This document shows, in pieces, positions 680-59,406 of a stretch of DNA of 64,000 bases (its first letter is position 1; each line of letters opens with the position of its first letter). The stretch covers positions 56,680-120,679 of the forward strand of contig CAYQVD010000001.1 of the NCBI GenBank assembly GCA_964421125.1, written 5' to 3'. Below the pieces are notes generated by a model. That model was not told the DNA's origin. It made no database searches and worked only from the letters and a program-made list of their open reading frames with translations. This DNA is from an uncultured Bdellovibrionales bacterium. Its GTDB lineage: Bacteria > Patescibacteriota > Minisyncoccia > Moranbacterales > DUUL01. The position numbers and the translations under genes are program-made.

Positions 680-1108
680 ATGAAAAATTCTGATTATAGA
701 AAATCTATTGGATTAATGATGATGACAATTCTTTTGTTGTTTGCTGGATTTTTCTTAACAATGCTCTTATTGTTATTTATCTTAAATAGTGAACTAGGAG
801 ATATCTATTGGGGAATTATTTTACCAATTTTCGCTTTTATTATAATAATCATCTTCATTTTTGCATTCACCCTATATCTTGCAAGTTGGATTTATTTTGT
901 AAAAACGAAAAGATACAGCAGATGGCTTGGTCTTCTCGGACTTATTCCTATCATTGGTCCATTGTTTTTAATAATAATAAAAAACAACTCTCATCAAGAG
1001 GAAGAGCAAGAAAAAAAAGAGAGAATTTATATTATAATTACTGCTATTATTGGAATGGTCATTCCAATAATTGTAATTTTTTCTGCCTTCTTTTTTTGTC
1101 ATCGTTAA
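680..1108 (+). CDS. Hypothetical small integral membrane protein (about 4 TM helices)
   Basis: 142-aa ORF dominated by hydrophobic helices. No recognisable family. Confidence 0.4.
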   Translation: MKNSDYRKSIGLMMMTILLLFAGFFLTMLLLLFILNSELGDIYWGIILPIFAFIIIIIFIFAFTLYLASWIYFVKTKRYSRWLGLLGLIPIIGPLFLIIIKNNSHQEEEQEKKERIYIIITAIIGMVIPIIVIFSAFFFCHR

Positions 1109-1359
1109 AAAAAGAAATAAAAAATATAAATCAAGATACATATTTATCAGAAAGCAAAATCAATGCTACCGTTAAGGGCGTGCATCATGAAAAAAAATGA
1201 AAAAAAATGCAAGAAAATATAAACTCTTTAATAAATTTGATGCCTCTTTTGCATCATTTTTTTAAAAAAACAATCAACGATCTTCTTTTTTGTTTATTAT
1301 ATTGAAAATCTTTTTAACTCATGTTATAATTAAATTGTTATCTTAAATCAAATAAAAAA

Positions 1360-2742
1360 ATGAAAAATAAAAAAATAATATCAATAAGTGCTCTTTTCTT
1401 TATAATTGCTTCAATTTTTTTACTATCAGGATGTCTTAAGGGAGGGAATACTATTAACTATGAGATGAATTTGGAAGTCTGGGGTTTTATTGATGATTCT
1501 GATGCTTTTAAGGAAATAAATAAAAATTATAAAACTCTTTCCCCTCAAATTAAACAACTTCAATACAAAAAAGTTTCATCAAACGTAGAAGAATTTGAAA
1601 AAGAATTAATAAATGCAATTGCAAGTGGAAAAGGACCAGATATAATTTTCTTTCACAGTTCATGGTTATTAGACCATACTGATAAAGTCGCTCCTCATCC
1701 ACAATCAGCTCAATACCTAAATCAATTTAATAAAAAATTTATTGACGTTGCATCTACTGACTTCATTAACAATGATGAAATCTATGCGATGCCTCTTTAC
1801 TCTGACACTCTTGCCCTTTTCTATAATAAGGATATTTTTAATCAAGAAGCCTTCACAAAAGCACCTGAGACCTGGGAAGAAGTCGTGGAATATACCAGAA
1901 AAATTACTAAACTTGATCAAAATGGAAACTTCTCTCGATCCGCAATAGCACTCGGAAGATCAAATGCTCCAGGTAGTATAAATCGTGCCTCCGACATTAT
2001 TAATCTTCTTTTCATGCAAAATGAAATTAAAATTCTTAATGAAGAAGGAACAAGAACTGAATTTGACAGAGTTGTTTTGAGCTCATCACTACTCGATTTC
2101 TACACTAAATTCGCAAAAAATTCACCTTTTTACACCTGGAATTCAAAAATGGAAAACTCTATAGACAGTTTTCGTTTTGGTAAAACAGCTATGATGATTA
2201 ATTATTCTTACATGGCAAATCGATTAAGAGAAACTGATCCAAAATTTAATTTTGAAATCGCCCCTGTCCCACAAGTTGATCTAGAAAATAAAGTAAACTA
2301 TGCAAATTACTGGGGGCTTGCAGTAGTCAAGAATAAAGCACTAGTTCCAGAAACACCTAATCAGATTATTAATTACACAAATAAAGACCGGATTAAAGAA
2401 TCTTGGAAATATATTAAATACGTAACAATGGGAACTATTACCAATAAAGAAGGACAAGAAGTTTCTCCAACTCCTGATCCAACAAAAAGTTATCTTGAAC
2501 TAACTAAAAAACCTACTGCCCGAAAAGATTTAATTGAAGAACAAAAAAATGATCCCGAACTTGGAATTTTCGCAGTACAAGCTCTTACCGCAAAATCATG
2601 GCAAGGTCCAAGCGATGCTGTAACTGAACCCATTTTCAATGAAATGATCGACAATGTTGTTTCAGGGAAATTAATCGCAAGAGATGCCATTAAGACAGCA
2701 GCCTCTAGAATTAATATAATATTAAGAGATTTAAAAAAATAA
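1360..2742 (+). CDS. Extracellular solute-binding lipoprotein (ABC transporter substrate-binding protein, family 1 / sugar-type)
   Basis: N-terminal signal peptide with lipobox (LLSGC). MalE-like motif GKGPDIIFFHSSW. Typical 460-aa length. Confidence 0.65.
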   Translation: MKNKKIISISALFFIIASIFLLSGCLKGGNTINYEMNLEVWGFIDDSDAFKEINKNYKTLSPQIKQLQYKKVSSNVEEFEKELINAIASGKGPDIIFFHSSWLLDHTDKVAPHPQSAQYLNQFNKKFIDVASTDFINNDEIYAMPLYSDTLALFYNKDIFNQEAFTKAPETWEEVVEYTRKITKLDQNGNFSRSAIALGRSNAPGSINRASDIINLLFMQNEIKILNEEGTRTEFDRVVLSSSLLDFYTKFAKNSPFYTWNSKMENSIDSFRFGKTAMMINYSYMANRLRETDPKFNFEIAPVPQVDLENKVNYANYWGLAVVKNKALVPETPNQIINYTNKDRIKESWKYIKYVTMGTITNKEGQEVSPTPDPTKSYLELTKKPTARKDLIEEQKNDPELGIFAVQALTAKSWQGPSDAVTEPIFNEMIDNVVSGKLIARDAIKTAASRINIILRDLKK

Positions 2743-2746: not shown

Positions 2747-4411
2747 ATGATCTCAAAAAAATCATTTTCACTTTTCTTTATCGGATTTTCATTGTTATTT
2801 TTCTTATTTGGAACAGTCAATAATACTAATGCTGCAATAATAGGTGAAGATTGTAATGAAGAAAACTCTTGTACAGACGGAACTTATTGCCTTTCTGCAT
2901 ATTGTAGACCTGCATTCAATGGAGGACTCGGAGATGAATGCAATCCAACCGAAGAAATGCCAGCTGGAACAGTTTGTTCTGATGGAATAAGTTTTTGTTA
3001 TGAAGGCAAATGTGCAGAAAAATGTGTTGTTGCTTATGGAAATTTATGTCATACGAATGATCCTTCAATAAGATGTTACCCATCAAAAGAAAATACCCAA
3101 GTTTCAATTTGTAAAACAAAATCATCAATTAATTGGATTGGCGCTCCATGTGGAATTGACATAGGAACTTTTTGTAAAAAAGAAGACCATGATCCCGTTT
3201 CTGGAGAAAAGACCTGCGGACCAGGCCTTGACTTTGCTTGGAGAGGATTTTTTATGTGTAGCCCAACAATAGGAACAGAAACTGAACCAAGTGTTAATCT
3301 CTCATGTTGCAAACCAGCATCGGAGACAGCAAAAGTACCTTGCCCTGATCTTAAATATGGAGCACTTTGTGCTAATAATAATGGATATTGTTATGATGGA
3401 TTGTGTGAACCTGAACCAGGAAAAGAAGTAGGTGCTTTATGCGGAAACGATGGAGGAACTTGCCAAGGAGACCCAGGATGGACTGAAATTTGTCCAGGAA
3501 TGACGACTTGGGATAGTGTTTCAGGAAGAGATTGCGATAAAACTGCATCAGGGCAAGAACTTAATTGTTGCATAGATAACAATTACCTACCTGACAGTAC
3601 TTGTGTTAATAAAACAAATGGTGAATCATGCGGTAATGGTGGTTATTGTTATGATGGAATATGCTCTGAATTCGGACTAGGCACCTTAGATGAGAAATGC
3701 GGAGCTCATGACGGACACTGTGTTATTGGAATAAAAGAGAATAATATTTGGTCATGCCCAGAAAGTGCTCCGCAAAGAGACAATGCGGAAAGAAAATGTG
3801 ATATAGGAAGTGATCCAGATAATAACCCAATTCTTTGTTGTACAATTCCTCCTACTGCTTCTCCTACTCCAACCCCAAACCCAATTAACATATCAGATTT
3901 CAATCCTACATACAAAGCATGTGCAGGAACTCAGCCAAGAGAAGGAATTGTGGGAGGAATGGGAATGTTTAGCGGATCAATTGTCCCTTGTGGAAGAAGT
4001 TGTGATGACCTCGGAACTCCAACCAACGAAATGAAAGAATGCACAATTTGTCATTTCATTCTGATGGGGAAAAGAATTTATGACCTAGTTCTTTCTTTGC
4101 TTATTATTGTTTCAATTGTTATGCTTACAGCCAGTGGAATTCTTTACATGTTTTCTGGAGCCAATCCAGAACTAAATTCTACTGCTAAAGAAATTGTTAC
4201 CAAAACACTAATTGGCTTTGCCTTATTCCTAGGAAGCTGGTTGATAGTCAGCACGATTCTTATTCTCATTTCTTATAATAGTGCCTTCTTGGGAACTGGA
4301 GGAAAATGGTATAATTTCTCTTGTGACACTACTAGCAAATTTCAAGCTAAAGATGACCAAGGGAATCAATCATGGCAAAACCCAAACAACTTAAATATCC
4401 CTGTCAATTAG
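2747..4411 (+). CDS. Secreted Cys-rich repeat protein fused to a C-terminal TrbC/VirB2-like pilin hairpin (two TM helices)
   Basis: Signal peptide followed by repeated GYCYDG(L/I)C Cys-rich modules and a Pro/Thr linker (PTASPTPTPNP). The C-terminal hydrophobic hairpin (LVLSLLIIVSIVMLTASGILYMFSGANPELNSTAKEIV...FALFLGSWLIVSTILILISY) is of the same type as the downstream pilin genes. Confidence 0.6.
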   Translation: MISKKSFSLFFIGFSLLFFLFGTVNNTNAAIIGEDCNEENSCTDGTYCLSAYCRPAFNGGLGDECNPTEEMPAGTVCSDGISFCYEGKCAEKCVVAYGNLCHTNDPSIRCYPSKENTQVSICKTKSSINWIGAPCGIDIGTFCKKEDHDPVSGEKTCGPGLDFAWRGFFMCSPTIGTETEPSVNLSCCKPASETAKVPCPDLKYGALCANNNGYCYDGLCEPEPGKEVGALCGNDGGTCQGDPGWTEICPGMTTWDSVSGRDCDKTASGQELNCCIDNNYLPDSTCVNKTNGESCGNGGYCYDGICSEFGLGTLDEKCGAHDGHCVIGIKENNIWSCPESAPQRDNAERKCDIGSDPDNNPILCCTIPPTASPTPTPNPINISDFNPTYKACAGTQPREGIVGGMGMFSGSIVPCGRSCDDLGTPTNEMKECTICHFILMGKRIYDLVLSLLIIVSIVMLTASGILYMFSGANPELNSTAKEIVTKTLIGFALFLGSWLIVSTILILISYNSAFLGTGGKWYNFSCDTTSKFQAKDDQGNQSWQNPNNLNIPVN

Positions 4412-4433
4412 AATTTTTTCTCAATAAAAAAAT

Positions 4434-5039
4434 ATGAAATTAAAAACAATTTATTACAGCTTGCTATTAATTTTTTTTTCACTCAGTGCAGGAATCACAA
4501 ATGCCGCTGGTTCTAATTACAACTATACAAACCCTCTCAAAGTGGACAGTATGACAGCCTGGCTTTCCGGAATTCTCGCTGGCCTTCAAGGAGTTGTCGG
4601 AATTATTGCAGTCATGATGCTGGTACTAGCAGGAATAATTTATATCGCCGCTGGAATAAATTCAAACTGGATGATACTAGCAAAAAACATGGCGACTTGG
4701 GCAATCATTGGCTTCGCTATTGTTGTTGCCGTTCCTTCATTACTAAAAGAAATTTACGACATCTTCAATACTAACCCTACAACTTCTCCTGATATCATTA
4801 AAGAAGCCAATTTTTTTAGAGACATCTTATTAAATGTTCTGCGATTCCTTCTGACAATCATTGGAGTTTTTGCTCTTATTAGTTTTGTGATTGCTGGATT
4901 CAAATACCTCACATCTGGTGGAGACCAAGGTAGAGCTGATAGTGCAAAAAAAATGGTTTTCTATTCCATCATCGCTGTTCTAGTATCAGGATCTGGAGTT
5001 ATCATCATTCGTCAAATCTTCAAAATCCTTGAAGGATAA
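4434..5039 (+). CDS. Pilin-like protein with two tandem TrbC/VirB2-type hairpin domains
   Basis: Signal peptide followed by two copies of the [TM]-[loop with AAG/GG and basic/acidic residues]-[TM] unit. Similar to the single-domain pilins downstream. Confidence 0.55.
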   Translation: MKLKTIYYSLLLIFFSLSAGITNAAGSNYNYTNPLKVDSMTAWLSGILAGLQGVVGIIAVMMLVLAGIIYIAAGINSNWMILAKNMATWAIIGFAIVVAVPSLLKEIYDIFNTNPTTSPDIIKEANFFRDILLNVLRFLLTIIGVFALISFVIAGFKYLTSGGDQGRADSAKKMVFYSIIAVLVSGSGVIIIRQIFKILEG

Positions 5040-5053
5040 TTTAAAATAAATTT

Positions 5054-5662
5054 ATGAATAAAAAAATACTTTACGGGGGAATAATCTTTTTTGTTTTGTT
5101 TTTTGTAACAAACATTTCCATCGCAGCCGATTACATTGTTGAGTTTGGTAGTCCCTTCGGTATTTCAACAGTAGAAAACTTTTTCCTAACAATCATTGAA
5201 AATCTTAAAAACTTGGTTGTCTTAATTGCAATTCTTTTTATTGTAATTGGTGGACTTTTCTATATCACCGCCGGAGAATCTAGTGAAAGAATCACTACTG
5301 CTAAAAAAATATGGACAGGCTCAATTATCGGCCTTTCACTTGCCCTGCTTGCTCCAACTTTTCTTAGAGAAATCCAACATACTTTTCTTAAAGATAAAAT
5401 TCTTAAAACCGATATCAATCAACTACTTAGCTTAAGTGCTATCATCACAAACGTCCTGACGTTCCTGTTGTCAATTGTTGGAATTCTAGCTATAATAAGT
5501 TTAGTGATAAGTGGACTGACTCTGATATTCTCTTTTGGAGACACTTCAAAAGCAGAGAAAGCAAAAGAAATGATCAAATGGTCTCTTGTTGGACTAGCTC
5601 TTTCCGGAGCATCAGTTATCATCGTAAGACAAATTGCTGATTTCATTCTGACAAAACCATAA
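5054..5662 (+). CDS. Pilin-like protein with two tandem TrbC/VirB2-type hairpin domains (paralog of 4434..5039)
   Basis: Same architecture as 4434..5039: ...IVIGGLFYITAGESSERITTAKKIW... and ...ISGLTLIFSFGDTSKAEKAKEMIKWSLVG... Confidence 0.55.
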   Translation: MNKKILYGGIIFFVLFFVTNISIAADYIVEFGSPFGISTVENFFLTIIENLKNLVVLIAILFIVIGGLFYITAGESSERITTAKKIWTGSIIGLSLALLAPTFLREIQHTFLKDKILKTDINQLLSLSAIITNVLTFLLSIVGILAIISLVISGLTLIFSFGDTSKAEKAKEMIKWSLVGLALSGASVIIVRQIADFILTKP

Positions 5663-5721
5663 TCAACTCCATAAGAAAAGTTCAAAATAAATAAAAAATA
5701 AACTAGAAAGGCGGTGAAAAA

Positions 5722-6090
5722 ATGAGTATTACAACTAAAAGAATTTTATCCTTTGTTTTCCTATTTGCTATTATGGGACTACCATTGCTAGCAGGAGCAC
5801 AACTTAACGTTGACTCCACTGAAATGGCTAACTCACGTCTAAGCAATATCACATTCTATGATCTACTAGTAACTGTCATGAATTGGTTATTAATAGTTAT
5901 AACTGTTCTAGCTGTTATTGGTTTTATTGTATCTGGAGTATATTTTATCACTGCCGCTGGAACCGGAAAAGTAGAAGACGCAAAACATTGGTTAACTTAT
6001 TCAATTATCGGAATAATCGTAGCCTTAATTGGATTCATCATCGTTAGACTTATCGATAGTCTTGTCGCTGGAAAGGCTTCATACACATAA
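5722..6090 (+). CDS. TrbC/VirB2-like (T4SS-type) pilin-family protein
   Basis: 122 aa: signal peptide, then a two-TM hairpin ...NWLLIVITVLAVIGFIVSGVYFITAAGTGKVEDAKHWLTYSIIGIIVALIGFIIV. Close paralog of the next gene. Confidence 0.65.
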   Translation: MSITTKRILSFVFLFAIMGLPLLAGAQLNVDSTEMANSRLSNITFYDLLVTVMNWLLIVITVLAVIGFIVSGVYFITAAGTGKVEDAKHWLTYSIIGIIVALIGFIIVRLIDSLVAGKASYT

Positions 6091-6105
6091 GTCTTCAATT
6101 GTTTT

Positions 6106-6158
6106 ATAAAACAAAACAAAACAGGTCCACTCGGACTTGTTTTGTTTTGTTTTTTTAA
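6106..6158 (+). terminator. Rho-independent terminator (about 19-bp stem, one mismatch, loop ACTC, followed by a T-run)
   Basis: aaacaaaacaaaacaggtcc-actc-ggacttgttttgttttgttt followed by ttttt. Confidence 0.7.
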
Positions 6159-6200
6159 TTATAATAAGAAAAACGATGTAAAAAATAAAAAACAATAAAA

Positions 6201-6578
6201 ATGAACATCTTCACAAAAAAAATTATATCCTTTATTTTTTTAATTTCAATTATGAGCATTCCTATGATTGCCATAGGTTTTGACACAGATTTACAAGAAC
6301 TTAAAGATTCGAAGCTAAGTAGTAAAAGTATTCAGGCAATAATTATAGTCACCATGAATTGGTTGCTAACAATAGTAACCGTCCTAGCTGTTATCGGATT
6401 TATTATATCTGGAGTATATTTTATTACTGCCCAAGGAAGCGGGGAAATAGAAGAAGCAAAGAGCTGGATGATTTATTCAATTATTGGAATCGTTGTGGCA
6501 CTTATTGGATATATCATCATCAACCTTGTTAACAGCCTACTCCTAGGAAATGCCACTCAAACAATAGTAATCCCTTAG
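6201..6578 (+). CDS. TrbC/VirB2-like pilin-family protein (close paralog of 5722..6090)
   Basis: ...TMNWLLTIVTVLAVIGFIISGVYFITAQGSGEIEEAKSWMIYSIIGIVVALIGYIII, near-identical to the hairpin of the upstream gene. Confidence 0.65.
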   Translation: MNIFTKKIISFIFLISIMSIPMIAIGFDTDLQELKDSKLSSKSIQAIIIVTMNWLLTIVTVLAVIGFIISGVYFITAQGSGEIEEAKSWMIYSIIGIVVALIGYIIINLVNSLLLGNATQTIVIP

Positions 6579-6669
6579 ACTCCTTAATAAACAGTCATAC
6601 TTAAATAAATCCAAATAAATAATTGTTTTGTTTTATGAAAAATGATAGAATATCAATAATAGAGAAAAA

Positions 6670-7011
6670 ATGATAAAGACAATTAAATACAATTTAATAT
6701 TAGCTGTTCTTTGGTCAAATAAAACTCTTGCGCAATTTATTGAACCAGAGAATAAAACAACTTCTTCGACAACTAAATCATCTTCCATAGATATTAATTT
6801 TCTCATAGAAGTTGTCACCCTCCTCTTTGCTTTTGTTTTTATTATCTCTATTATTGGATTTCTTTTTTCTGGACTCAAGTTCATGACCGCTGGAGGGTCA
6901 GAATCAGTTCTTGAAAGCGCTCATAAAACTTGGATAGCTTCACTAACAGGATTAATTGTTTCCTTATTAGGATACATAATGATATACATATTAAAAATGA
7001 TTTTTCTTTAA
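6670..7011 (+). CDS. TrbC/VirB2-like pilin-family protein
   Basis: 113 aa: signal peptide and a two-TM hairpin with GLKFMTAGGSESVLESAHKTW in the loop. Confidence 0.5.
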   Translation: MIKTIKYNLILAVLWSNKTLAQFIEPENKTTSSTTKSSSIDINFLIEVVTLLFAFVFIISIIGFLFSGLKFMTAGGSESVLESAHKTWIASLTGLIVSLLGYIMIYILKMIFL

Positions 7012-7026
7012 ACATAAATAAAAAAC

Positions 7027-7422
7027 ATGAAAAATAAAAAAATAATTTTATTGTCTCTTATCACCATCTTTTTAACATTAGCCTCAACTGCTCTTGCACA
7101 AGAGATTAATGCAGGTGTTATCAGTGGTATTAAGTCAGTTGGTTTTATTGCTGCTGTAGGAGCCCTTATAGCTTTCGTCCCTTTTGCATCAGCTTCTTCT
7201 GTCCTAGGAACACTACTAAACTGGCTACTTTCAATTTTCACTTTCATTGCTGTTATTTCTTTTATTATAACTGGAATAATGTTTATATTTTCTGGTTCAA
7301 ACCCCGAACTAAAAACACAAGCAAAATCTGGCCTAGTTTATTCAATTATTGGAATTGCTATTGGAATTTCAGGCTGGATAATCCTTGGTACAATAGCTAA
7401 TCTTATGGGAGGTTCTATATAA
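7027..7422 (+). CDS. TrbC/VirB2-like pilin-family protein
   Basis: Signal peptide (ASTALAQE cleavage-like site) followed by ...LLNWLLSIFTFIAVISFIITGIMFIFSGSNPELKTQAKSGLVYSIIGIAIGISGWIIL. Confidence 0.6.
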   Translation: MKNKKIILLSLITIFLTLASTALAQEINAGVISGIKSVGFIAAVGALIAFVPFASASSVLGTLLNWLLSIFTFIAVISFIITGIMFIFSGSNPELKTQAKSGLVYSIIGIAIGISGWIILGTIANLMGGSI

Positions 7423-7436
7423 ATAAAATCTTAAAA

Positions 7437-7838
7437 ATGAAACTATTTAAAAACATTGCAACCCCTCTTTTATCAACAATCACTTTTTTCGCAACAACAC
7501 TTTATGTAAAAGCAAGTTGGACGGCAGGAATGGAAGTAATCAATAACCCCCTTGAAGTAACTCTTCCTGGAGGATCCTTTGCTCCAGGCCCTATTTGGAT
7601 TTTACTATCACTCTTTCTATGGTTATTAAAAATATTTATGATACTAGGAGTAATTTCCTTTGTAATAGCTGGAATTGTATTTCTAGTTTCTACTGTTAAT
7701 CCAGAATTAAGGGAAAGAGCTAAGAACATTGTCACTTACTCAATCATTGCAATCATTATTGGATTCTCTGGAATTCTTATTCTAGTAACTATCCTCTCCA
7801 TTCTTACCGGTGCATCAGGAATAGATTACTTATTATAA
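7437..7838 (+). CDS. TrbC/VirB2-like pilin-family protein
   Basis: ...LWLLKIFMILGVISFVIAGIVFLVSTVNPELRERAKNIVTYSIIAIIIGFSGILIL. The NPEL motif is shared with 7027..7422 and 2747..4411. Confidence 0.55.
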   Translation: MKLFKNIATPLLSTITFFATTLYVKASWTAGMEVINNPLEVTLPGGSFAPGPIWILLSLFLWLLKIFMILGVISFVIAGIVFLVSTVNPELRERAKNIVTYSIIAIIIGFSGILILVTILSILTGASGIDYLL

Positions 7839-7853
7839 ATAAAAATAAATAAT

Positions 7854-8411
7854 ATGAAAATCGGATCACTACGTTTCTTGTTAATTATAGGAATTATTTT
7901 TACTTCTTTTGCAATTTTTTCAGGCAATGCTCTTGCTCAAGTTTGCATTGGAGATAATGGAAGCGATGGAGCTTGTGAATTCGGATGGTGCAGTGATGGG
8001 GAGAATATAGGAGATTCTGGAGATGATTGTGATATGGGGGATGTTTGCTGTGGGACAATTGGAGGAGGTAATACTGGAGGTAATACTGGAGCAACATCTG
8101 GTGTTCCTGTTGATTTAATCCCTGAAGGTCTTGGATTACCTGATCCCGGATTAACGAGTGGAGATCAAAGTGGAATTGAAGTGATACTCCTTGCTCTCTT
8201 GAATTGGCTCTTAATCATTTTCCTTATTGTATCTCTGATTGCTTTTATCATAACAGGGTTAATGTATCTTCTCGCAATGGGAAACTCCAGAACTGTCTTA
8301 ATGGAAAATGCAAAGAATTATTTCTATTATGCGGTGATAGCCCTGTTAGTGACTGGCTCAGGACTAATTATCGTTAATGTTATCAACAACTTTCTCAACG
8401 CAAGCCTTTAA
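7854..8411 (+). CDS. Pilin-family protein with an N-terminal Cys/Gly/Asp-rich module
   Basis: Signal peptide, then CIGDNGSDGACEFGWCSDGENIGDSGDDCDMGDVCCGT, a Gly/Thr linker and a pilin hairpin ...LLNWLLIIFLIVSLIAFIITGLMYLLAMGNSRTVLMENAKNYFYYAVIALLV. Confidence 0.6.
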   Translation: MKIGSLRFLLIIGIIFTSFAIFSGNALAQVCIGDNGSDGACEFGWCSDGENIGDSGDDCDMGDVCCGTIGGGNTGGNTGATSGVPVDLIPEGLGLPDPGLTSGDQSGIEVILLALLNWLLIIFLIVSLIAFIITGLMYLLAMGNSRTVLMENAKNYFYYAVIALLVTGSGLIIVNVINNFLNASL

Positions 8412-8440
8412 AAATTTTCATCATAACATTCTTAACAAAA

Positions 8441-8466
8441 AAGACACCAGAAGGTGTCTTTTTTTG
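8441..8466 (+). terminator. Rho-independent terminator closing the pilin array
   Basis: agacacc-agaa-ggtgtct followed by ttttttt. Confidence 0.75.
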
Positions 8467-8492: not shown

Positions 8493-9494
8493 TCAAACTG
8501 ATTTTTCTATTAAATCCTTAGCCTTAACTAAAATAAAATTCCTTCTAGGTTCCGGTAAAAAAATTAAAGCCTGATCACTAATTCTAATATCAGCACCGGA
8601 CTTTTTTGTTTTTGGATTATTTTTGATTTTTAAAATCATAAATTTCTTTGCTAATTTATTTAAAAAATTGGCAACTCCAATTTTTTCCAAGAAAACTTCT
8701 ATATAAAAAGAAAATTTTGAAATATTTTTTGATTTTTTGATTTTATTACTTTCAATTAAATCAGACTGAAAATTTGGTAAAAATGCTTTATTTTTAAAAT
8801 CATTTAATTGATAAAAACGTCTAGCTGTATCATGACCAACCATCCAAAAAGAAAATGCAATTTCATTGGAAATAAAAATACCATCTTCTTCAAAAATAAG
8901 TCCCTCCTCAGTCAAATAATGATTTAAACAAAATCTATCTTTAACCATCTTCCCATGTCTCCTTTTTCCAAACAAACTTAAAGTTAACGACAAAAAAAGT
9001 CTTCCCAGCCAAATATAATCCTTTTTAACTATTACTAAAAGATCCCAATCACTTCCATGGTTAGAGTTTTTCATTGCCAACGTTCCATTAAAAATGACCG
9101 CTCGTAAAAATGGAATATTACGAAAAAGTTTATTCCACTTTATTATTTTTTTAATTTTTGTTATCGAAATTTTTTGTTTCAAAATTCGATTTTGAAAAAA
9201 ATCAGGTTCCTCCCTTCCCATTTTCCAAAAACCTTTTTGGAATGAAAGAAATAATCTTTCTTCTAATTCTCTTAGTGCTTCAATGACATCAATAAGCTCA
9301 CAACATTCTCTTCTCCCTTTAATGTCAATATAATGCCTCCAAACCTCAAAAGTCGTTGGAGTAAAATCCATCGCATTTAAATAAGCGACTGTAAATAGAA
9401 CGTTTTTATTAAGAGGATTCATAAAATTATTTAGTAATTCATATACATCCTTTCTGTCACAGTTGAAATATAGATAATGTATTTTCAAAAGCAT
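8493..9494 (-). CDS. Predicted nucleotidyltransferase-domain protein (Pol-beta superfamily NTase motif)
   Basis: 333-aa ORF containing FNGTLAMKNSNHGSDWDLLVIV, which fits the hG[GS]-x9-13-DhD NTase signature. No further family assignment possible. Confidence 0.4.
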   Translation of the reverse strand: MLLKIHYLYFNCDRKDVYELLNNFMNPLNKNVLFTVAYLNAMDFTPTTFEVWRHYIDIKGRRECCELIDVIEALRELEERLFLSFQKGFWKMGREEPDFFQNRILKQKISITKIKKIIKWNKLFRNIPFLRAVIFNGTLAMKNSNHGSDWDLLVIVKKDYIWLGRLFLSLTLSLFGKRRHGKMVKDRFCLNHYLTEEGLIFEEDGIFISNEIAFSFWMVGHDTARRFYQLNDFKNKAFLPNFQSDLIESNKIKKSKNISKFSFYIEVFLEKIGVANFLNKLAKKFMILKIKNNPKTKKSGADIRISDQALIFLPEPRRNFILVKAKDLIEKSV

Positions 9495-20917: not shown

Positions 20918-23900
20918 ATGGTTATGAACAAGAAAAAGACAATTATTGATGCTGGGGTTGGACACATTAATATTTATTTTTTTGATACCCAAAATAAAAA
21001 AACAGAGAATGTTTTAATTACTGGTAATGATGACCTCCGAATACTTTTTCAAAAATATGATATTTTTGAAAAAATTAAAGACACCGATGTTTTTATAACT
21101 GGAAAACTAGCCAATATTGTTAAAAAAATTGTTAAAAAAGGAAATATTATTTTGCCAGTAGCAGCTCTCTGGGAAGCTGGAAAAAAATTGATGCATCAAA
21201 ATGAAAACAAAGACATTGAAGAGCTAGCTATTATTGACCTATCTGCTTCTGGATATTTACTAATTGGGATTGATAAAAAAGGAAATCTAAAAAACGATAC
21301 TCTAATAACTAATCCTCACTGTGGAGCTGGTAGTGGTGTAAACTTAGACCGAGTGTTACAAAAATTAGCAATCAAAAGAGATGGCGTAGATAAACTACTT
21401 TCGCAATATCTTGGAAAAAATAATAAAGAAGAAAGAGAAAAAATCAACATCAGAGCTGATCGTTGCGGTGTTTTTAGCTCTTCTGCTACTATATCTGACA
21501 AAAATCAAGGAATTCCTTTATCCTTTGCCCTAGCTACCACCATAAAATCAGAAGTGATAAAAACTTGCACAAAACTTCCAGAAAGATTTGAAAAGGTATA
21601 TTTGACAGGACGTGTTTTCAATTGGCAATTTGCCAGAGAATGCGCTCAGGACTATTTGAAAAAGAAAGGAACAAAAATAATTGAGCTTGATAAAGATAAT
21701 GATCTTTCCATTACTGGAACACTTGAACTTTCCAAAAAAGTGAAAAATGAAAATTTTAACAACGGAGAAACTGAATTAAAAAAAGAAGAAAAATTAGAAG
21801 AATTTCCCTCTTTTAAGTCAATTAAAAACAAACACGAAAAATCTAATTTATATAAAAGATTAGAAAGTGAACATATATCAGAATTGCAAGCTGACAAATT
21901 TGAAACAACCCCAGTGTATCTAGGCTTAGATGTAGGCTCAACCATGGCAAAGCTGGTAATATGCGATCAAAATGAAAATATTCTTCTTATAGACTCTTAT
22001 GGTAATTCTGGAGATACTATTGATACTGTAAAATCAATTTTCAACAGCTTAAAAAATAAAAACGTTCACAAGCTTCAAATATTAAACATTGGAATTACTG
22101 GAAGCGCCAGATATCAAGTTGAACAATCAATAACACAAATTTATCCTCAATTAAAAGATAAGGTTTCAGTTTTAGTAGAAAATTATGCTCATGCTCGAGG
22201 ATCAATTGATTATGCTCGAAATCATATTAAAACACTGAAAGAAAAAGGCATAAAAGATATTAATAACAAGTTTTGTATTCTAGTTGACATAGGAGGAGAG
22301 GACACTAAATTATCAACAATTACTTTAGAAAAAGGAGAGCTTTTTGATAATGTCATGAATGTAAAATGTTCAGCTGGAACTGGCAGTCTAATGGACACCC
22401 TCACTTCTCTGTTTGGAATGGACAATGTTGAAGAAGCTTGTAATCTAGCCTTTAATGCTGAAAAATCATATGCCATAAATGCTACTTGTGCAGTATTTTT
22501 AATGGAAAATGCTAGAAAATTACAGGCTCAAGGATATCCAAAAAATGAAATTCTAGCTTCAGCTAATTGGGCAATTGTAGAAAACATGGCTAGAAGCCTT
22601 TGGGGTCAAATTGATTTACCAAAAAATGCTATCACACTATTGCATGGTCAAACTATGCTCTCTGAACCTCTTCCTCTTGCTGTTTGTAATAGACTACAAG
22701 AATTTACCAATTCAAAAAATTACTGCCTAGTCCCTCCTTATCCAGGACATCGAGCTTGTATTGGACTAATAAAATCTCTGTCTAAAGATAATACAAATGA
22801 AACAAAAGAAATAATTTTACAAAGTTTTATTGAAAAAAAATTCTCAAAAAAAGTTATAGTTTGCAATGGCGTAGCCTGTGGAGATCGTAATGCACGTTGC
22901 AATAGAACTTTATTAAGTTGTACTAATGATAATAATGAAAAATTTAGTTTCACTCTCGGTGGTTGTACAGCTGTAAATGAACTTCTTAATAAAAAAGTAA
23001 AGCCTAATAAAAAACCAATTGATTCCTATAAAGAATTATGGAATTTCATTGATTCTCATCATCCAACAACAGAAGATAAAAATAGATTAATAATTCCAAG
23101 GAGCTTTGCCGTAAGTGAGTGGGCATATTTTTTATCTCAAATTTTTGAAGATATTGGAATAAAAACACATGTAGACAATGTGCAAGAAAAAGATATTCTA
23201 AATGCACAACCACTTTTCAATATCGACACTTGCGCCCCTCATATTGGAGCAGTTGGTCAATATAGACGATTAGCGAATGAACCACACGGAATGATTTTAG
23301 CCCCTCAAATTACCTTTTTACCTACTAATAAAAAAAGCCTAGGAAGAACCTGTACTCTTAATCAAGGAGGAATAGCCACAGCAAAAAACTTAGCTACCCT
23401 AAAAAACAAAAATTCTAAATTCCATTTATTTAGCATGAATCTTAGCGAACTAGATTCTAAAAAAATCAGCAACAACATTTTTCATCAATTGAAACCAGTT
23501 CTTAATTACTACAAAAAAAATATTAGTCGTAAAAGCTTTGAAAAATCAGTAACCAACGCACTTAAACTTAACGATAAACTCAAAAATGCAGTAGCAGATA
23601 AAGCAGCCATCTTTGCAGAAAAAGCTCTAGCAGATAACAAACAAATCGCGTTAGTCGTTGGACGTGAATACATCCTAAATCCAGGAATATACGACAGCCA
23701 CGCTGGAAGACTACTACGAGATAAGGGAATGCTAGTTTTACCTTCCTATGTTTTTGACGTGGAACTAGATGATGATTTCAAACACATCTACTGGAAAAAT
23801 CCTCACACAATCACAAGTATTGTTAAATATGTTTCCCAAAACAACTTAAGCAAAAAAATAAAAAATTTGAAACTTAAAAAAGTTTTTGAAAAAATTGAAT

Positions 23901-25555
23901 CAAATAATAATAATCAATACCCTATTGTTCAAGTATCAACTTTTCGCTGTGGACCAGACAGTGCTACTTCTCATCTTATTTCAGAAATAACAAAAAAAAG
24001 ACCGTTCCTGTTGATTCAATCTGACGCTATCATTAAAGAATTGGCTCATCTGGAAAACAGAGTTAATACCCATATAAAACAAATAGAACAAGACCTTCAC
24101 TCAAAACTTTTAGATGAAGAAAATGAAGATTTTGAAATTAAAATCTTGGAAAACTTTCAAAATACTCAAGATATTGATAAGGAAACGGATGTAATTTATT
24201 TTCCGACACTTGGAGACAATAGGACAATTTCCTCTGTCGTTAGATCCATTGGATTTACTTGTATTGATAATTTTAATGACGAAAGCTATAATCTCTCAGA
24301 CCTTATAAAAGAAGGTCGAAAATATGCCGGCGACTCCATTTGCGCTCCACTCGCAGCTGTCTTTGGAGATACCATTAGAGCAGTTGAAGATTTTAAAAAA
24401 AGAAAAGACAATAATGATCCTTTGTTTATAAATAAAAAACGAGTTTTAGTCTTTAATAACAAAGGAACTGGTCCATGCAGACAAGGTCAATATAGTGAAG
24501 TACACAAATTACTTGCTCATCAAAAATATTCAAACTCAGAAGATCAAAATCTTCTTAAATTCCTAGTTAGCGATGAAAGAAAGGGTTATAATTTCGGTGT
24601 TGACAAGGCAATTCTAATTCGAGCATTCAAAGGCGGAATACTTCAAGGTGTTCTTCATCAAATATTATTTAATTTTGGTTCAAGTTGCAATAACTTAAAA
24701 GAATACAAAGTATTTAAAGAAGAATTTAAATATCTTAAAAAGAAAATATTCAAAATTCAAGAAAATACAAAACCAAATGAAAAATTCCTAGAAAAGACAA
24801 ATCTTATTCAAAAAATACCACTGATTAATGAAATTATTAAATATTATGGTTATGGCCTTAATAATAAAAATATAGAAAAAGAACTTTCAAAATTTACCGA
24901 TAAATGGAAAAGGCAAATAAGAATAAAAACAAAAGATATTATCAAAATCCACATTGAAGGAGAAGCCTATTTACGTATAGCTCAAAGTGAAGAAGTTTTT
25001 AATAATCTATTATCAACTCTCGGTTTTAATAAATTTAACCTTGAATACACTCCGGTTTGGTCCTATCTTGAATACATTCTTTTAAATCAAATAAATATTG
25101 AAAAAGAAAAAATCAGCAATGACAAAACATTCAAAAACATCTTTAATTCCAGTAAAAAAATCATGAAACTAAATCTTGCTCATTTTTTCATAAGAAATAT
25201 CTTAGCAAAACCACTTTACAAAGCAGTGAAAATAAAAGTTCCTGAATCAATGAAGAAAATTTTAGAATTATCAAAAAAAATAATCCCAACGCTACAACCA
25301 GCAGGAGAGCTAACTCCCTACGTAGGAGAAGCTATTCATAAACTTGAAAATGACACAGACCTACTCCTTAATATTGCTCCGGAAGGCTGTATGGTTTCTT
25401 CTATGGGAGAAGTTTTAACTCCGAAAATATTAAACTATACTAAAAACAAAGGAGGAATTCAAAATTTATTCTCTCAAGACGGAGAAATTAACGATGAAAT
25501 ATTAACGACTGCACTCTTGAAAATACTCGGACCTGAAAAATTCTATAAAAAATAA
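20918..25555 (+). CDS. Giant CoA-substrate-specific enzyme activase-like protein: two BcrAD/BadFG (HgdC-type) ATPase domains fused to a 2-hydroxyacyl-CoA dehydratase D-component-like (DUF2229/HgdB-like) domain
   Basis: 1545 aa. N-terminal region has NPHCGAGSGVNLD; second ATPase has LGLDVGSTMAKLV, DIGGEDTKL and KCSAGTGSLMD (both resemble the activase CAAGTG cluster-Cys motif). Downstream FRCGPDS and CGDRNARC are typical of dehydratase-like partner domains. Confidence 0.55.
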   Translation: MVMNKKKTIIDAGVGHINIYFFDTQNKKTENVLITGNDDLRILFQKYDIFEKIKDTDVFITGKLANIVKKIVKKGNIILPVAALWEAGKKLMHQNENKDIEELAIIDLSASGYLLIGIDKKGNLKNDTLITNPHCGAGSGVNLDRVLQKLAIKRDGVDKLLSQYLGKNNKEEREKINIRADRCGVFSSSATISDKNQGIPLSFALATTIKSEVIKTCTKLPERFEKVYLTGRVFNWQFARECAQDYLKKKGTKIIELDKDNDLSITGTLELSKKVKNENFNNGETELKKEEKLEEFPSFKSIKNKHEKSNLYKRLESEHISELQADKFETTPVYLGLDVGSTMAKLVICDQNENILLIDSYGNSGDTIDTVKSIFNSLKNKNVHKLQILNIGITGSARYQVEQSITQIYPQLKDKVSVLVENYAHARGSIDYARNHIKTLKEKGIKDINNKFCILVDIGGEDTKLSTITLEKGELFDNVMNVKCSAGTGSLMDTLTSLFGMDNVEEACNLAFNAEKSYAINATCAVFLMENARKLQAQGYPKNEILASANWAIVENMARSLWGQIDLPKNAITLLHGQTMLSEPLPLAVCNRLQEFTNSKNYCLVPPYPGHRACIGLIKSLSKDNTNETKEIILQSFIEKKFSKKVIVCNGVACGDRNARCNRTLLSCTNDNNEKFSFTLGGCTAVNELLNKKVKPNKKPIDSYKELWNFIDSHHPTTEDKNRLIIPRSFAVSEWAYFLSQIFEDIGIKTHVDNVQEKDILNAQPLFNIDTCAPHIGAVGQYRRLANEPHGMILAPQITFLPTNKKSLGRTCTLNQGGIATAKNLATLKNKNSKFHLFSMNLSELDSKKISNNIFHQLKPVLNYYKKNISRKSFEKSVTNALKLNDKLKNAVADKAAIFAEKALADNKQIALVVGREYILNPGIYDSHAGRLLRDKGMLVLPSYVFDVELDDDFKHIYWKNPHTITSIVKYVSQNNLSKKIKNLKLKKVFEKIESNNNNQYPIVQVSTFRCGPDSATSHLISEITKKRPFLLIQSDAIIKELAHLENRVNTHIKQIEQDLHSKLLDEENEDFEIKILENFQNTQDIDKETDVIYFPTLGDNRTISSVVRSIGFTCIDNFNDESYNLSDLIKEGRKYAGDSICAPLAAVFGDTIRAVEDFKKRKDNNDPLFINKKRVLVFNNKGTGPCRQGQYSEVHKLLAHQKYSNSEDQNLLKFLVSDERKGYNFGVDKAILIRAFKGGILQGVLHQILFNFGSSCNNLKEYKVFKEEFKYLKKKIFKIQENTKPNEKFLEKTNLIQKIPLINEIIKYYGYGLNNKNIEKELSKFTDKWKRQIRIKTKDIIKIHIEGEAYLRIAQSEEVFNNLLSTLGFNKFNLEYTPVWSYLEYILLNQINIEKEKISNDKTFKNIFNSSKKIMKLNLAHFFIRNILAKPLYKAVKIKVPESMKKILELSKKIIPTLQPAGELTPYVGEAIHKLENDTDLLLNIAPEGCMVSSMGEVLTPKILNYTKNKGGIQNLFSQDGEINDEILTTALLKILGPEKFYKK

Positions 25556-39300: not shown

Positions 39301-39402
39301 TTGTGGATAACTTTCAATGAAAATATCACGACTTTGCATTAAAAAGTTTTTGCAAAAACTTCGAAATGCCATTGTTTAAAAGCATTATCAGGTAAATTAA
39401 GT
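39085..39402 (+). repeat. 318-bp direct repeat, copy 1 (3' end of paralog A plus about 100 bp of 3' flank), identical to 40368..40685
   Basis: Base-for-base identity read directly, including a 16-bp perfect palindrome agtttttgcaaaaact at 39345..39360. Confidence 0.8.
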
Positions 39403-40583: not shown

Positions 40584-40685
40584 TTGTGGATAACTTTCAA
40601 TGAAAATATCACGACTTTGCATTAAAAAGTTTTTGCAAAAACTTCGAAATGCCATTGTTTAAAAGCATTATCAGGTAAATTAAGT
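40368..40685 (+). repeat. 318-bp direct repeat, copy 2
   Basis: Identical to 39085..39402. Palindrome agtttttgcaaaaact at 40628..40643. Confidence 0.8.
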
Positions 40686-55874: not shown

Positions 55875-55891
55875 CTTTTTTAAAATAAAGA

Positions 55892-59397: not shown

Positions 59398-59406
59398 ATA
59401 ATTTAA

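What the first reader, a model, noticed from the sequence alone, without database searches (positions are those of the whole stretch)
2747..8411. Nine-gene tandem array of TrbC/VirB2-like pilin-family genes, with no secretion ATPase or channel genes in the window
Nine consecutive plus-strand ORFs all encode a signal peptide plus a two-TM hairpin of the conjugative-pilin type. The hairpin loops contain recurring A(A/G)G and NPEL...AK motifs. Neighbouring copies are clear paralogs (5722 and 6201 are near-identical in the hairpin). No VirB4, VirB6, VirD4 or PilB/PilC genes are seen in this window, so the pilins appear encoded apart from any machinery. Such arrays have been noted in CPR genomes, but the size and diversification of this one are notable.
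Basis: partly seen in the sequence, partly recalled or inferred. Interest (0 to 1): 0.55.

Follow-up and report, generated by a model that had tools for sequence, protein, structure and literature searches.

The report
Patescibacterial VirB2-like pilin gene array
Nine neighbouring genes in an ultrasmall (CPR/Patescibacteria) bacterium encode variants of a small membrane-hairpin "pilin" of the type IV secretion family; such arrays, often far from the secretion machine, were catalogued in 2025, so this is a new example of a known kind.

Summary
Nine consecutive + strand ORFs lie exactly at 2747-8411, and all are paralogs. Each has a Sec-type signal peptide and a helix-loop-helix membrane hairpin. 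Two corrections: ORF2 and ORF3 each carry two hairpins (11 in all), and ORF4/ORF5 are 53-58% identical, not near-identical.

All nine hit Pfam PF18895 (T4SS_pilin). Four are above the gathering score, three just below and two weak. TrbC/VirB2 (PF04956) is passed only by ORF3. No VirB4, VirB6, VirD4 or PilB/C gene lies in the 64-kb window, within 10 kb beyond its right end, or within 10 kb of related arrays.

This is published: Quinonero-Coronel et al. 2025 report 441 VirB2 arrays of 2-11 genes in Patescibacteria, with pilins near virB4 in only 1,135 of 1,948 assemblies. Wang et al. 2023 showed such an array to be essential.

What I add, all inferred:
- The paralogs are old and keep their positions across species.
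- The ORF4 slot has a conserved promoter-like site in five loci and a terminator hairpin in all eight, so it may be the major pilin.
- A carbohydrate-type solute-binding lipoprotein and the Cys-rich "head" pilin ORF1 are gained or lost together.

Whether this genome has a T4SS could not be tested.

The parts
1302..1330 (+). Promoter-like site (TTGAAA-17-TGtTATAAT, 11/12) 30 nt before the solute-binding-protein gene. A terminator-like hairpin at 1238-1256 precedes it.
   Evidence: consensus match only. The region as a whole is not enriched in such matches (37 found vs 35.7 expected).
1360..2742 (+). Solute-binding lipoprotein (SBP_bac_1, carbohydrate/MalE-UgpB-like, lipobox LLSGC). It ends 4 nt before ORF1 and is probably co-transcribed with it. 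No ABC permease or ATPase gene was found among the window ORFs scanned.
   Evidence: Pfam PF01547 at 1.9e-20. NCBIfam gives only distant MalE/UgpB-type hits. Orthologs (47-55% identity) or Pfam SBP_bac_1 genes lie next to the ORF1 ortholog in 9 other loci. Both genes are missing together in L029.
2747..4411 (+). ORF1, the 'head' pilin. Signal peptide aa 1-29. Cys-rich ectodomain (44 Cys in the protein; repeated C..G.(Y/F)CY(D/E)G.C modules at aa 77, 208 and 295). Pro/Thr linker about aa 367-378. Conserved core GSIVPCGRxCD...NE..CTxCHF at aa 410-437. Hairpin about aa 437-517. Tail with a conserved W..F.C.
   Evidence: PF18895 at 25.8 bits. Family alignment A2. Hairpin HMM 79.9 bits. The ectodomain has only 3 other clusters among 1.84 billion representatives. 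The AlphaFold2 model is poor, pLDDT 54.
4434..5039 (+). ORF2, a double-hairpin pilin (two PF18895 stretches, four TM helices).
   Evidence: PF18895 at 52.5 bits with 2 stretches. HMM domains at aa 36-114 and 121-201. Reciprocal-best orthologs in 7 loci at 38-49% identity. 60% identical to the L029 ortholog.
5054..5662 (+). ORF3, a double-hairpin pilin. It is the only ORF above the TrbC/VirB2 gathering score.
   Evidence: PF18895 at 64.5 bits, PF04956 at 32.1 bits (cut-off 27.9), DUF6112 at 26.3 bits. Orthologs found.
5468..5496 (+). Promoter-like site TTGTCA-17-TATAAT (11/12) inside the 3' half of ORF3, ending 226 nt before the ORF4 start codon.
   Evidence: The same hexamers occur at the equivalent place in L016, L018 and L029, and as TTGTCA..TATTAT in L017. 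Function is inferred, not shown.
5722..6090 (+). ORF4, a single-hairpin pilin and candidate major subunit.
   Evidence: PF18895 at 24.0 bits. 53% identical to ORF5. Orthologs in all related arrays. Flanked by the conserved promoter-like site and terminator hairpin.
6108..6153 (+). Intrinsic-terminator-like hairpin (20-bp stem, T-run) 18 nt after the ORF4 stop codon.
   Evidence: dG about -30 kcal/mol. A hairpin with a T-tract of different sequence follows the ORF4 ortholog in all 7 other loci examined.
6201..6578 (+). ORF5, a single-hairpin pilin. It is a duplicate of the ORF4 slot, and the duplication is shared with L029.
   Evidence: PF18895 at 29.0 bits.
6670..7011 (+). ORF6, a single-hairpin pilin and the weakest Pfam hit. 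Its mature N-terminus QF(I/V)E.P is conserved in orthologs.
   Evidence: PF18895 at 12.0 bits. Local hairpin HMM 82.4 bits (the model was built from the window's own hairpins, this one included). Orthologs in L016, L018, L027 and L029.
7027..7422 (+). ORF7, a single-hairpin pilin with the NPEL loop.
   Evidence: PF18895 at 32.7 bits, TrbC at 25.4 bits. AlphaFold2 model of aa 50-131 has pLDDT 86.7 and helices at domain residues 7-39 and 44-79.
7437..7838 (+). ORF8, a single-hairpin pilin with the NPEL loop.
   Evidence: PF18895 at 25.6 bits. 39% identical to ORF7. 59% identical to its ortholog in L029.
7854..8411 (+). ORF9, a pilin with a Cys-rich (6 Cys) and Gly-rich N-terminal extension of about 70 aa.
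   Evidence: PF18895 at 16.5 bits. Hairpin HMM 88 bits (the model includes this sequence). Orthologs L018_13674 (7 Cys) and L029_13452 (13 Cys).
8437..8464 (.). Hairpin AAAAAAGACACC-AGAA-GGTGTCTTTTTT between the end of ORF9 and the convergent 333-aa gene (8493-9494, - strand). It is the likely end of the transcription unit.
   Evidence: RNAfold of the 3' flank.

Best explanation
The region is a chromosomal cluster of nine paralogous genes for VirB2-like pilins of the Patescibacteria type (Pfam PF18895). The organism is a low-GC, Moranbacteria-like member of the CPR.

Shown here:
- Each product has a Sec signal peptide and one hairpin of two long hydrophobic helices joined by a short loop with a conserved Ala-Lys. 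ORF2 and ORF3 have two such hairpins.
- The gene order is: Cys-rich head pilin, two double-hairpin pilins, then single-hairpin pilins. It is conserved gene by gene in related species.
- No secretion ATPase or channel gene lies nearby.

Inferred:
- The proteins are inserted by Sec, cleaved, and stored in the membrane as N-out/C-out hairpins.
- A VirB4-type T4SS encoded elsewhere (in this class usually near dnaA/dnaN) extracts and polymerises them into a heteromeric pilus or stalk used in the epibiotic interaction with a host cell.
- ORF4 (with its duplicate ORF5) is the abundant major subunit, because it has its own conserved promoter-like site and terminator.
- ORF1, co-inherited with a solute-binding lipoprotein, displays a fast-evolving disulfide-rich ectodomain as a tip or adhesin-like subunit.
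- The remaining paralogs are differentiated minor subunits.
For: - Family: PF18895 hits in all nine ORFs, four above the gathering score. TrbC/VirB2 is above its cut-off for ORF3. NCBI names close homologs 'pilin'.
- Shape: two-helix hairpin model with pLDDT 86.7. Signal peptidase I sites in all nine. The Cys-rich parts lie N-terminal of helix 1 and in the C-terminal tail, which fits an N-out/C-out topology.
- Literature: PF18895/PF04956 pilins occur in 1,948 Patescibacteria assemblies that have VirB4, and are near virB4 in 1,135. There are 441 arrays of 2-11 genes (PMC12102498). The pilin array inside the T4SS cluster of Southlakia epibionticum is essential (PMC10633639; PMC12857230). virB4 in Paceibacteria is usually near dnaA/dnaN.
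- Differentiated subunits: ORF1, 2, 3, 4, 6, 7 and 9 have reciprocal-best orthologs in the same order in L016 and/or L018, several of them in further loci too. ORF2-9 all have orthologs in order in L029. ORF2 is 38-49% (60% in L029) identical to its orthologs but 32% to its paralog ORF3.
- ORF4 unit: the promoter-like TTGTCA-17-TATAAT lies inside ORF3 in 5 loci. A terminator hairpin follows the ORF4 ortholog in 8 of 8 loci, with unrelated stem sequences. The same slot was duplicated independently in L018.
- SBP-ORF1 module.
Against: - No T4SS ATPase or channel gene was seen anywhere I could look: the window, 10 kb beyond its right end, and 10 kb around arrays in L016, L018, L021-L024 and L029.
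- There is no detectable similarity to structurally solved pilins. The profile against PDB sequences found nothing. hhalign against A. tumefaciens VirB2 gave probability 1.6%. Foldseek found nothing with E<1, because a two-helix hairpin is too generic.
- No filament has yet been shown for any Patescibacteria T4SS; the literature calls it a possibility.
- Promoter and terminator calls are consensus matches only, and promoter-like sites are not enriched in the region.
- The roles assigned to individual paralogs are inference.
Confidence: 0.6

Rival explanations
1. The array is a variation repertoire. The paralogs would be interchangeable alternative major pilins, expressed one at a time or mixed, to evade host defences or to match different host strains. 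This has been proposed for virB2 paralog arrays of Bartonella and Anaplasma and suggested for Patescibacteria.
For: Identity between paralogs is low (15-58%). The literature makes this suggestion (PMC12102498). The ORF1 ectodomain evolves very fast: only 3 other clusters among 1.84 billion representatives, and ectodomain lengths differ among orthologs (167-1034 aa). The ORF4 slot has duplicated repeatedly.
Against: Each paralog has its own ortholog in the same position across species, and is more similar to that ortholog than to its neighbours. The fixed architecture of head, two double hairpins and singles is conserved. No recombination repeats or silent-cassette features were found beyond the ORF4/5 duplication, which is 73% identical at the DNA level. 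Copies from five other assemblies are identical, or 99.6% for the partial SBP copy in L001.
Confidence: 0.15
2. The proteins are small bitopic or hairpin membrane proteins that merely share the PF18895 hairpin. They would act independently of any T4SS, for example as membrane anchors that display ectodomains (ORF1, ORF9) on the cell surface, or as envelope-organising proteins working with the adjacent solute-binding lipoprotein.
For: No T4SS gene lies within reach in this or related loci. The hairpin fold is generic and has no significant structural or sequence match to solved pilins. Hydrophobic hairpins also give sub-threshold hits to unrelated families such as TctB and CrgA. The cluster is linked to an SBP rather than to machinery.
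Against: PF18895 genes lie next to virB4 in 1,135 assemblies, and are essential inside the T4SS cluster of S. epibionticum. ORF3 passes the TrbC/VirB2 model. Several ORFs give E values of 1e-5 to 1e-6 against a Mycoplasma ICE 'pilin-like conjugal transfer protein' model, though below its cut-off. The conserved loop Ala-Lys and Gly in all 11 domains point to a shared specific function.
Confidence: 0.15
3. The proteins are T4SS components but do not form an extended pilus. In this single-membrane cell they would build only a short channel or stalk segment across the wall, in the way VirB2 is also needed for the translocation channel itself in Gram-negative systems.
For: Gram-positive-type (MPF-FATA) systems, to which the Patescibacteria VirB4 is related, normally lack pili. 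No pilus has been imaged, and reviews call it a possibility. Fused double hairpins (ORF2, ORF3) and bulky ectodomains would be unusual in a helical pilus lattice.
Against: Nothing direct. The number and conservation of distinct subunits, and a candidate highly expressed major subunit, fit a polymer better than a fixed-stoichiometry channel.
Confidence: 0.1

Closest known systems
VirB2-like pilin arrays of Patescibacteria (Pfam PF18895 T4SS_pilin; Quinonero-Coronel et al., Microb Genom 2025, PMC12102498)
   Same: Same Pfam family. Tandem chromosomal array of divergent paralogs. Nine genes lies inside the published 2-11 range. Identities of 15-58% compare with the published mean of 25% and maximum of 54%. 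Location away from virB4 is common (813 of 1,948 assemblies). Monoderm CPR host.
   Different: [quoted passage not shown] I did not find the following in the parts of that paper I read or keyword-searched (section 13 part 1, section 14, and searches for 'fused', 'fusion', 'cysteine', 'solute-binding'): fused double-hairpin pilins, the Cys-rich head pilin with its SBP partner, the position-by-position orthology, and the separate promoter/terminator of one slot.
Essential pilin array in the T4SS cluster of Ca. Southlakia epibionticum ML1 (SEML1_0006-0019; Wang et al., Cell 2023, PMC10633639)
   Same: Several structurally similar, sequence-divergent VirB2-like pilins encoded in a row in a Patescibacterium. 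This is the only system with functional (Tn-seq) evidence.
   Different: There the six pilins sit inside the T4SS gene cluster. Here nine genes sit among housekeeping genes with no machinery within at least 55 kb on the right side. The class is different (Saccharimonadia). Sequence similarity to the Southlakia proteins was not tested.
TrbC/VirB2 conjugative pilins of Gram-negative T4SS (PF04956; A. tumefaciens VirB2, PDB 8cue/8exh; RP4 TrbC)
   Same: A signal peptide followed by a two-helix hydrophobic hairpin of about 70 aa with a short polar loop. ORF3 passes the Pfam model (32.1 bits).
   Different: Eight of the nine ORFs are below the PF04956 cut-off. There is no detectable similarity to the VirB2 sequence itself (hhalign probability 1.6%). 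The mature proteins are longer (about 92-107 aa). The host has a single membrane. Cyclisation and lipid binding are unknown.
virB2 paralog arrays of Bartonella and Anaplasma phagocytophilum
   Same: Tandem amplification and divergence of the pilin gene of a T4SS.
   Different: Those are canonical MPF-T systems of intracellular Gram-negative pathogens and are thought to serve antigenic or host variation. Here the paralogs are ancient, keep their positions across species, and differ in architecture.
Mbov_0395 family pilin-like conjugal transfer protein of Mycoplasma ICEs (NCBIfam NF045849)
   Same: A small hairpin protein of a monoderm (MPF-FATA-type) conjugation system. ORF3, 5 and 7 align over nearly the whole 80-position model with E values of 7e-6 to 3e-5.
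   Different: All scores (12-26 bits) are below the curated cut-off of 40, so membership is not met. The similarity may partly reflect hydrophobic composition.

Membership tests
Pfam PF18895 T4SS_pilin (Patescibacteria VirB2-like pilins) | Match to the family HMM at or above the gathering score (26.6 bits) | tested here: met
   ORF2 52.5, ORF3 64.5, ORF5 29.0 and ORF7 32.7 bits are above the cut-off. ORF1 25.8, ORF8 25.6 and ORF4 24.0 are just below. ORF9 16.5 and ORF6 12.0 are weak. The sub-threshold ORFs are clear paralogs of the passing ones (BLASTP E about 1e-5 to 1e-47).
Pfam PF18895 T4SS_pilin (Patescibacteria VirB2-like pilins) | Sec signal peptide followed by a helix-loop-helix hydrophobic hairpin | tested here: met
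   Hydropathy, signal peptidase I sites, AlphaFold2 hairpin with pLDDT 86.7.
Pfam PF18895 T4SS_pilin (Patescibacteria VirB2-like pilins) | Occurrence in a Patescibacteria genome, often as tandem arrays of divergent copies | tested here: met
   The closest S2 and pilin homologs are named Patescibacteria or Moranbacteria. Nine genes, 15-58% identity, against published arrays of 2-11 genes.
Pfam PF18895 T4SS_pilin (Patescibacteria VirB2-like pilins) | A T4SS (VirB4, TrsD, VirB3, VirB6) encoded in the same genome | not testable with these tools
   Only the 64-kb window and 10 kb beyond its right end (L006) could be read. The long source contigs were not returned. None of these genes lies within the window.
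TrbC/VirB2 conjugative pilins (Pfam PF04956) | Match to the PF04956 HMM at or above the gathering score (27.9 bits) | tested here: inconclusive
   Only ORF3 passes (32.1 bits). ORF7 reaches 25.4. The other seven have no reported hit.
TrbC/VirB2 conjugative pilins (Pfam PF04956) | Detectable sequence or fold similarity to experimentally solved pilins (VirB2, TraA, etc.) | tested here: not met
   The profile of 11 hairpins against PDB sequences found no pilin. hhalign against VirB2 gave probability 1.6%. Foldseek against PDB found nothing with E<1; the only pilin listed was the A. pernix conjugation pilus at E 4.7.
TrbC/VirB2 conjugative pilins (Pfam PF04956) | Polymerisation into an extracellular filament by a T4SS; pilin processing or cyclisation | not testable with these tools
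   Needs imaging or biochemistry.
Type IV pilus (T4P) pilins (PilA-type) | Class III signal peptide with the G|F(T/M)LxE prepilin peptidase site and a single N-terminal hydrophobic helix | tested here: not met
   The N-termini are classical Sec signal peptides with AxA-type sites, and the proteins have two C-terminal TM helices. There are no T4P Pfam hits.
Mbov_0395 family pilin-like conjugal transfer protein (NCBIfam NF045849) | Score at or above the curated cut-off (40 bits) | tested here: not met
   The best score is 25.7 bits (ORF3). ORF2, 4, 5, 7 and 8 give 12-25 bits.

The most novel reading that the evidence does not exclude
The array would encode an ordered, heteromeric T4SS pilus with fixed roles for its subunits. 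ORF4 would be the separately transcribed major subunit. ORF2 and ORF3 would be fused double-hairpin adaptor subunits. The tip module would be the fast-evolving disulfide-rich head pilin ORF1 together with its co-inherited carbohydrate-type solute-binding lipoprotein. This would link the Patescibacteria T4SS pilus physically to capture or uptake of host-derived molecules, rather than to DNA or effector export.
Probability: 0.12. Interest if true: 0.7.

Novelty: new member of a known kind. Interest (0 to 1): 0.3.

Why it matters
The T4SS and its pilin array are essential for the one genetically tractable Patescibacterium, and their function is an open question. By itself this locus adds only one more example. 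The comparative pattern around it gives concrete, testable hypotheses about how the many pilin paralogs divide their labour. That pattern has four parts: position-specific orthologs, a candidate major pilin with its own promoter and terminator, fused double pilins, and a head pilin that is gained or lost together with a solute-binding lipoprotein. It also bears on whether the structure is tied to nutrient acquisition.

Tried and rejected
- Foldseek of the ORF7 hairpin model against PDB gave only generic helical hairpins with E>1, which is uninformative.
- The profile of the 11 hairpins against PDB sequences and hhalign against the PDB-verified A. tumefaciens VirB2 showed no detectable similarity.
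- The AlphaFold2 model of ORF1 with its 10 homologs had pLDDT 54 and a largely unmodelled ectodomain. Its Foldseek search was meaningless.
- An exhaustive HMMER search with the ORF1 ectodomain found only 3 other clusters, so the ectodomain cannot be assigned to any family.
- PHROGs gave no hits, so a phage origin was rejected. The flanks are housekeeping genes, so the locus is not a plasmid or ICE.
- I tried to recover the source contig or assembly to look for VirB4. Look-ups of four window proteins returned only short contigs or a 96.7-kb ENA contig starting at about window position 40,545. The long contigs (up to 121,930 bp) were never shown. One look-up found nothing because the gene call differs.
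- The first genome-contig scan, with ORF1 alone, found nothing. The second, with the family alignment, gave 15 loci.
- I looked for T4SS genes in the flanks of related loci and found none.
- T4P pilins were considered and rejected because the signal peptide is of the wrong type.
- I considered whether the SBP adjacency is mere synteny. It survives inversion and relocation of the rest of the array (L017, L019, L020) and is lost together with ORF1 in L029. I therefore keep it as a lead, not a conclusion.

Full report
**Observation.** The ORF listing shows nine consecutive + strand ORFs with exactly the limits given: 2747-4411 (554 aa), 4434-5039 (201), 5054-5662 (202), 5722-6090 (122), 6201-6578 (125), 6670-7011 (113), 7027-7422 (131), 7437-7838 (133) and 7854-8411 (185). 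The gaps are 14-110 nt.

All nine are homologous to one another. BLASTP E values run from about 1e-5 to 1e-47, and the hairpin domains are 15-58% identical. An HMM built from the hairpins finds these nine ORFs and nothing else in the window.

Every product begins with a Sec-type signal peptide with an AxA-like cleavage site, followed by two long hydrophobic helices. An AlphaFold2 model of the ORF7 domain is a confident two-helix hairpin (pLDDT 86.7). In the loop's 'AK', the Ala is invariant and the Lys is present in 10 of 11 domains. A Gly in helix 1 is also invariant.

Three details need correcting:
- ORF2 and ORF3 each contain two hairpins, so there are 11 domains.
- ORF4 and ORF5 are 53% identical overall (58% in the hairpin, 73% at the DNA level over 216 nt). 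They are not near-identical.
- ORF1 is mostly a Cys-rich ectodomain (44 Cys in the protein), and ORF9 also has a Cys/Gly-rich extension.

**Family.** Pfam PF18895 'Type IV secretion system pilin' matches the hairpin of all nine ORFs. ORF2, 3, 5 and 7 are above the gathering score of 26.6 bits. ORF1, 4 and 8 are within 3 bits of it. ORF6 and ORF9 are weak.

TrbC/VirB2 (PF04956) is passed only by ORF3 (32.1 vs 27.9 bits); ORF7 reaches 25.4. NCBI's pipeline names close homologs 'pilin'. NCBIfam gives sub-threshold but full-length matches to a Mycoplasma ICE 'pilin-like conjugal transfer protein' model (12-26 bits against a cut-off of 40).

Direct comparison with experimentally solved pilins fails. 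A profile of the 11 hairpins finds no pilin among PDB sequences. hhalign against the PDB-verified A. tumefaciens VirB2 gives probability 1.6%. Foldseek returns only generic helical hairpins with E>1. Membership of the Patescibacteria pilin family is therefore well supported. Kinship with canonical VirB2 rests on the Pfam profile alone.

**Surroundings.** Pfam scans of about 40 other ORFs show ordinary chromosomal genes:
- a solute-binding protein directly upstream;
- UvrA, RecO, RluD-type pseudouridine synthase, ribosomal protein L19, a class I tRNA synthetase, Lgt, TsaD and MiaA;
- EF-Ts, ribosomal protein S2 and PNPase;
- histidine kinases and IleRS;
- LspA and a row of PMT-type glycosyltransferases.

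There is no VirB4, VirB6, VirD4, PilB or PilC. The ORFs without Pfam hits contain no Walker-A motif. GC is about 31% and the cumulative GC skew falls monotonically, so no replication origin is in the window.

A 96.7-kb ENA contig overlapping the right part of the window shows another 10 kb. It holds a type I restriction-modification system, a Rep protein, a serine recombinase and MgsA, again without a T4SS. The closest named ribosomal protein S2 homologs, and the records holding related pilins, are 'Patescibacteria group', Moranbacteria/Moraniibacteriota and Paceibacterota. Several related MAGs carry the title 'uncultured Bdellovibrionales', which looks like a mislabel given their content.

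**What is known.** Quinonero-Coronel et al. (Microb Genom 2025, PMC12102498) searched 3,035 Patescibacteria genomes with PF04956 and PF18895. They found VirB2-like pilins in 1,948 assemblies that also have VirB4, near virB4 in only 1,135. [quoted passage not shown] In Paceibacteria, virB4 tends to lie near dnaA/dnaN.

Wang et al. (Cell 2023, PMC10633639) showed by Tn-seq that the pilin series inside the T4SS cluster of Southlakia epibionticum is essential. A 2025 review calls the possibility of a pilus in these monoderms intriguing but unproven (PMC12857230).

A nine-gene array away from the machinery is therefore inside the published range.

**What related loci add.** ORF1 has only about ten homologs among 5.8 billion clusters, all with PF18895. 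Its ectodomain alone finds three other clusters among 1.84 billion representatives. The conserved part of the family is 'SPxEG..GGF..F.GSIVPCGRxCD...NE..CTLCHF', then the hairpin, then 'KWYEFxCDT'.

A scan of GTDB genomes with that alignment, plus look-ups of homologs, gave loci L009-L032. In them my hairpin HMM shows the same architecture again and again: a Cys-containing head pilin, two double-hairpin pilins, then three to five single-hairpin pilins (L016 seven genes, L018 eight, L017, L019, L020, L027, L029).

ORF1, 2, 3, 4, 6, 7 and 9 have reciprocal-best orthologs in the same order in L016 and/or L018. The closer relative L029 has orthologs of ORF2 to ORF9 in order at 51-69% identity. ORF2 is 38-49% identical to its orthologs in the more distant loci, but only 32% to its neighbour ORF3.

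The paralogs are thus old and individually conserved. Only the ORF4 slot duplicates: ORF4/ORF5 here and in L029, and an independent duplication in L018. This argues for differentiated subunits rather than interchangeable variants.

**Expression signals (consensus matches, inferred function).**
- A promoter-like site at 1302-1330 precedes the SBP gene, which ends 4 nt before ORF1.
- A TTGTCA-17-TATAAT site lies inside ORF3 at 5468-5496. It recurs at the same place in L016, L018 and L029, and as TTGTCA..TATTAT in L017.
- A 20-bp hairpin with a T-run follows ORF4 at 6108-6153. A hairpin with a T-tract of unrelated sequence follows the ORF4 ortholog in all seven other loci.
- Another hairpin closes the cluster at 8437-8464.

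I read this as ORF4 being a separately and strongly expressed gene. That is the usual signature of a major pilin. It is an inference only.

**The SBP-ORF1 pair.** The upstream gene (1360-2742) is a distant MalE/UgpB-type solute-binding lipoprotein with lipobox LLSGC. No ABC permease gene was found among the window ORFs scanned.

Its ortholog, or a gene with the same Pfam SBP_bac_1 domain, abuts the ORF1 ortholog in L009/15, L011/14, L016, L018, L019, L020, L030 and L031. One gene lies between them in L017. This holds even where the rest of the array is inverted or moved.

In L029 the array starts directly after the ortholog of the 142-aa membrane protein (window 680-1108). The SBP and ORF1 are both missing there. 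More distant Cys-pilins (L010, L021-L024) are not next to such an SBP. The two genes therefore behave as one module in this sub-clade. What the SBP does there is unknown.

**Mechanism.**
- Shown: family membership, topology-compatible features, conserved architecture, and separation from machinery.
- Inferred: Sec insertion and cleavage give a membrane pool of N-out/C-out hairpins. A VirB4-type T4SS encoded elsewhere polymerises them into a heteromeric pilus or stalk for host interaction. ORF4/5 would be the major subunit, ORF1 an adhesin-like head, and the rest minor subunits.
- Confidence: about 0.9 for the family assignment and about 0.6 for the whole statement.
- Rivals: a variation repertoire (0.15), T4SS-independent membrane or display proteins (0.15), and a channel-only role (0.1).

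**Verdict.** The feature is real, correctly read, and already of a known kind, so it is a new member. Interest is low to moderate. The comparative leads are the only parts that go beyond what I found published. They are position-specific orthology, the ORF4 transcription unit, double-hairpin pilins and the SBP-head-pilin module.

Noticed in passing
window 1360-2742 with 2747-4411; loci L009, L011, L016-L020, L030, L031; absent in L029: A carbohydrate-type solute-binding lipoprotein with no ABC permease gene among the window ORFs scanned. It is always adjacent to the Cys-rich head pilin, and the two are gained or lost together.
   Followed up: partly
window 39083-39402 and 40366-40685: A 320-nt perfect direct repeat. 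It covers the last ~220 nt (about 70 codons) plus about 100 nt downstream of two paralogous single-pass membrane-protein genes (37888-39300 and 39543-40583) that are otherwise only about 66% identical at the DNA level. This suggests recent gene conversion or an assembly artefact.
   Followed up: partly
window 48042-51437 (- strand): The isoleucyl-tRNA synthetase-like protein (1131 aa) carries a NUDIX hydrolase domain (aa 219-331, E 1.3e-23) inserted within the catalytic tRNA-synt_1 region.
   Followed up: no
window 20918-25555 (+ strand): A very large (1545 aa) BadF/BcrA-type ATPase fused to a CoA-enzyme-activase domain (DUF2229). This is unusual for a reduced genome.
   Followed up: no
L006 1-10000 (DNA just beyond the right end of the window): Type I restriction-modification M and S subunits, a Rep-like protein, a large serine recombinase and MgsA. 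This may be an integrated mobile element next to the window.
   Followed up: no
window 52770-61161 (- strand): Four large polytopic membrane proteins, three with PMT-type glycosyltransferase hits, plus a GT2-GtrA enzyme, followed by two paralogous metallophosphoesterases (61178-63285). This is a surface-glycosylation cluster.
   Followed up: no
ORF2, 3, 4, 5, 7 and 8 (window 4434-7838): Sub-threshold but nearly full-length matches to NCBIfam NF045849, a pilin-like conjugal transfer protein of Mycoplasma ICEs. This hints that small VirB2-like proteins may not be wholly absent from monoderm (MPF-FATA) systems.
   Followed up: partly
L014-L017, L019, L026 (record titles): Several MAGs that carry Patescibacteria-type pilin arrays, some with the same SBP gene upstream, are titled 'uncultured Bdellovibrionales bacterium'. 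This is probably a taxonomic mislabel in the records.
   Followed up: no
L011 5902-7485; L021 3137-6241: In relatives, Cys-rich ectodomains are also fused to other pilins: the double-hairpin ORF2 ortholog (527 aa, 42 Cys) and a 1034-aa pilin with 66 Cys. Ectodomain-pilin fusion is therefore a recurrent theme in this clade.
   Followed up: partly
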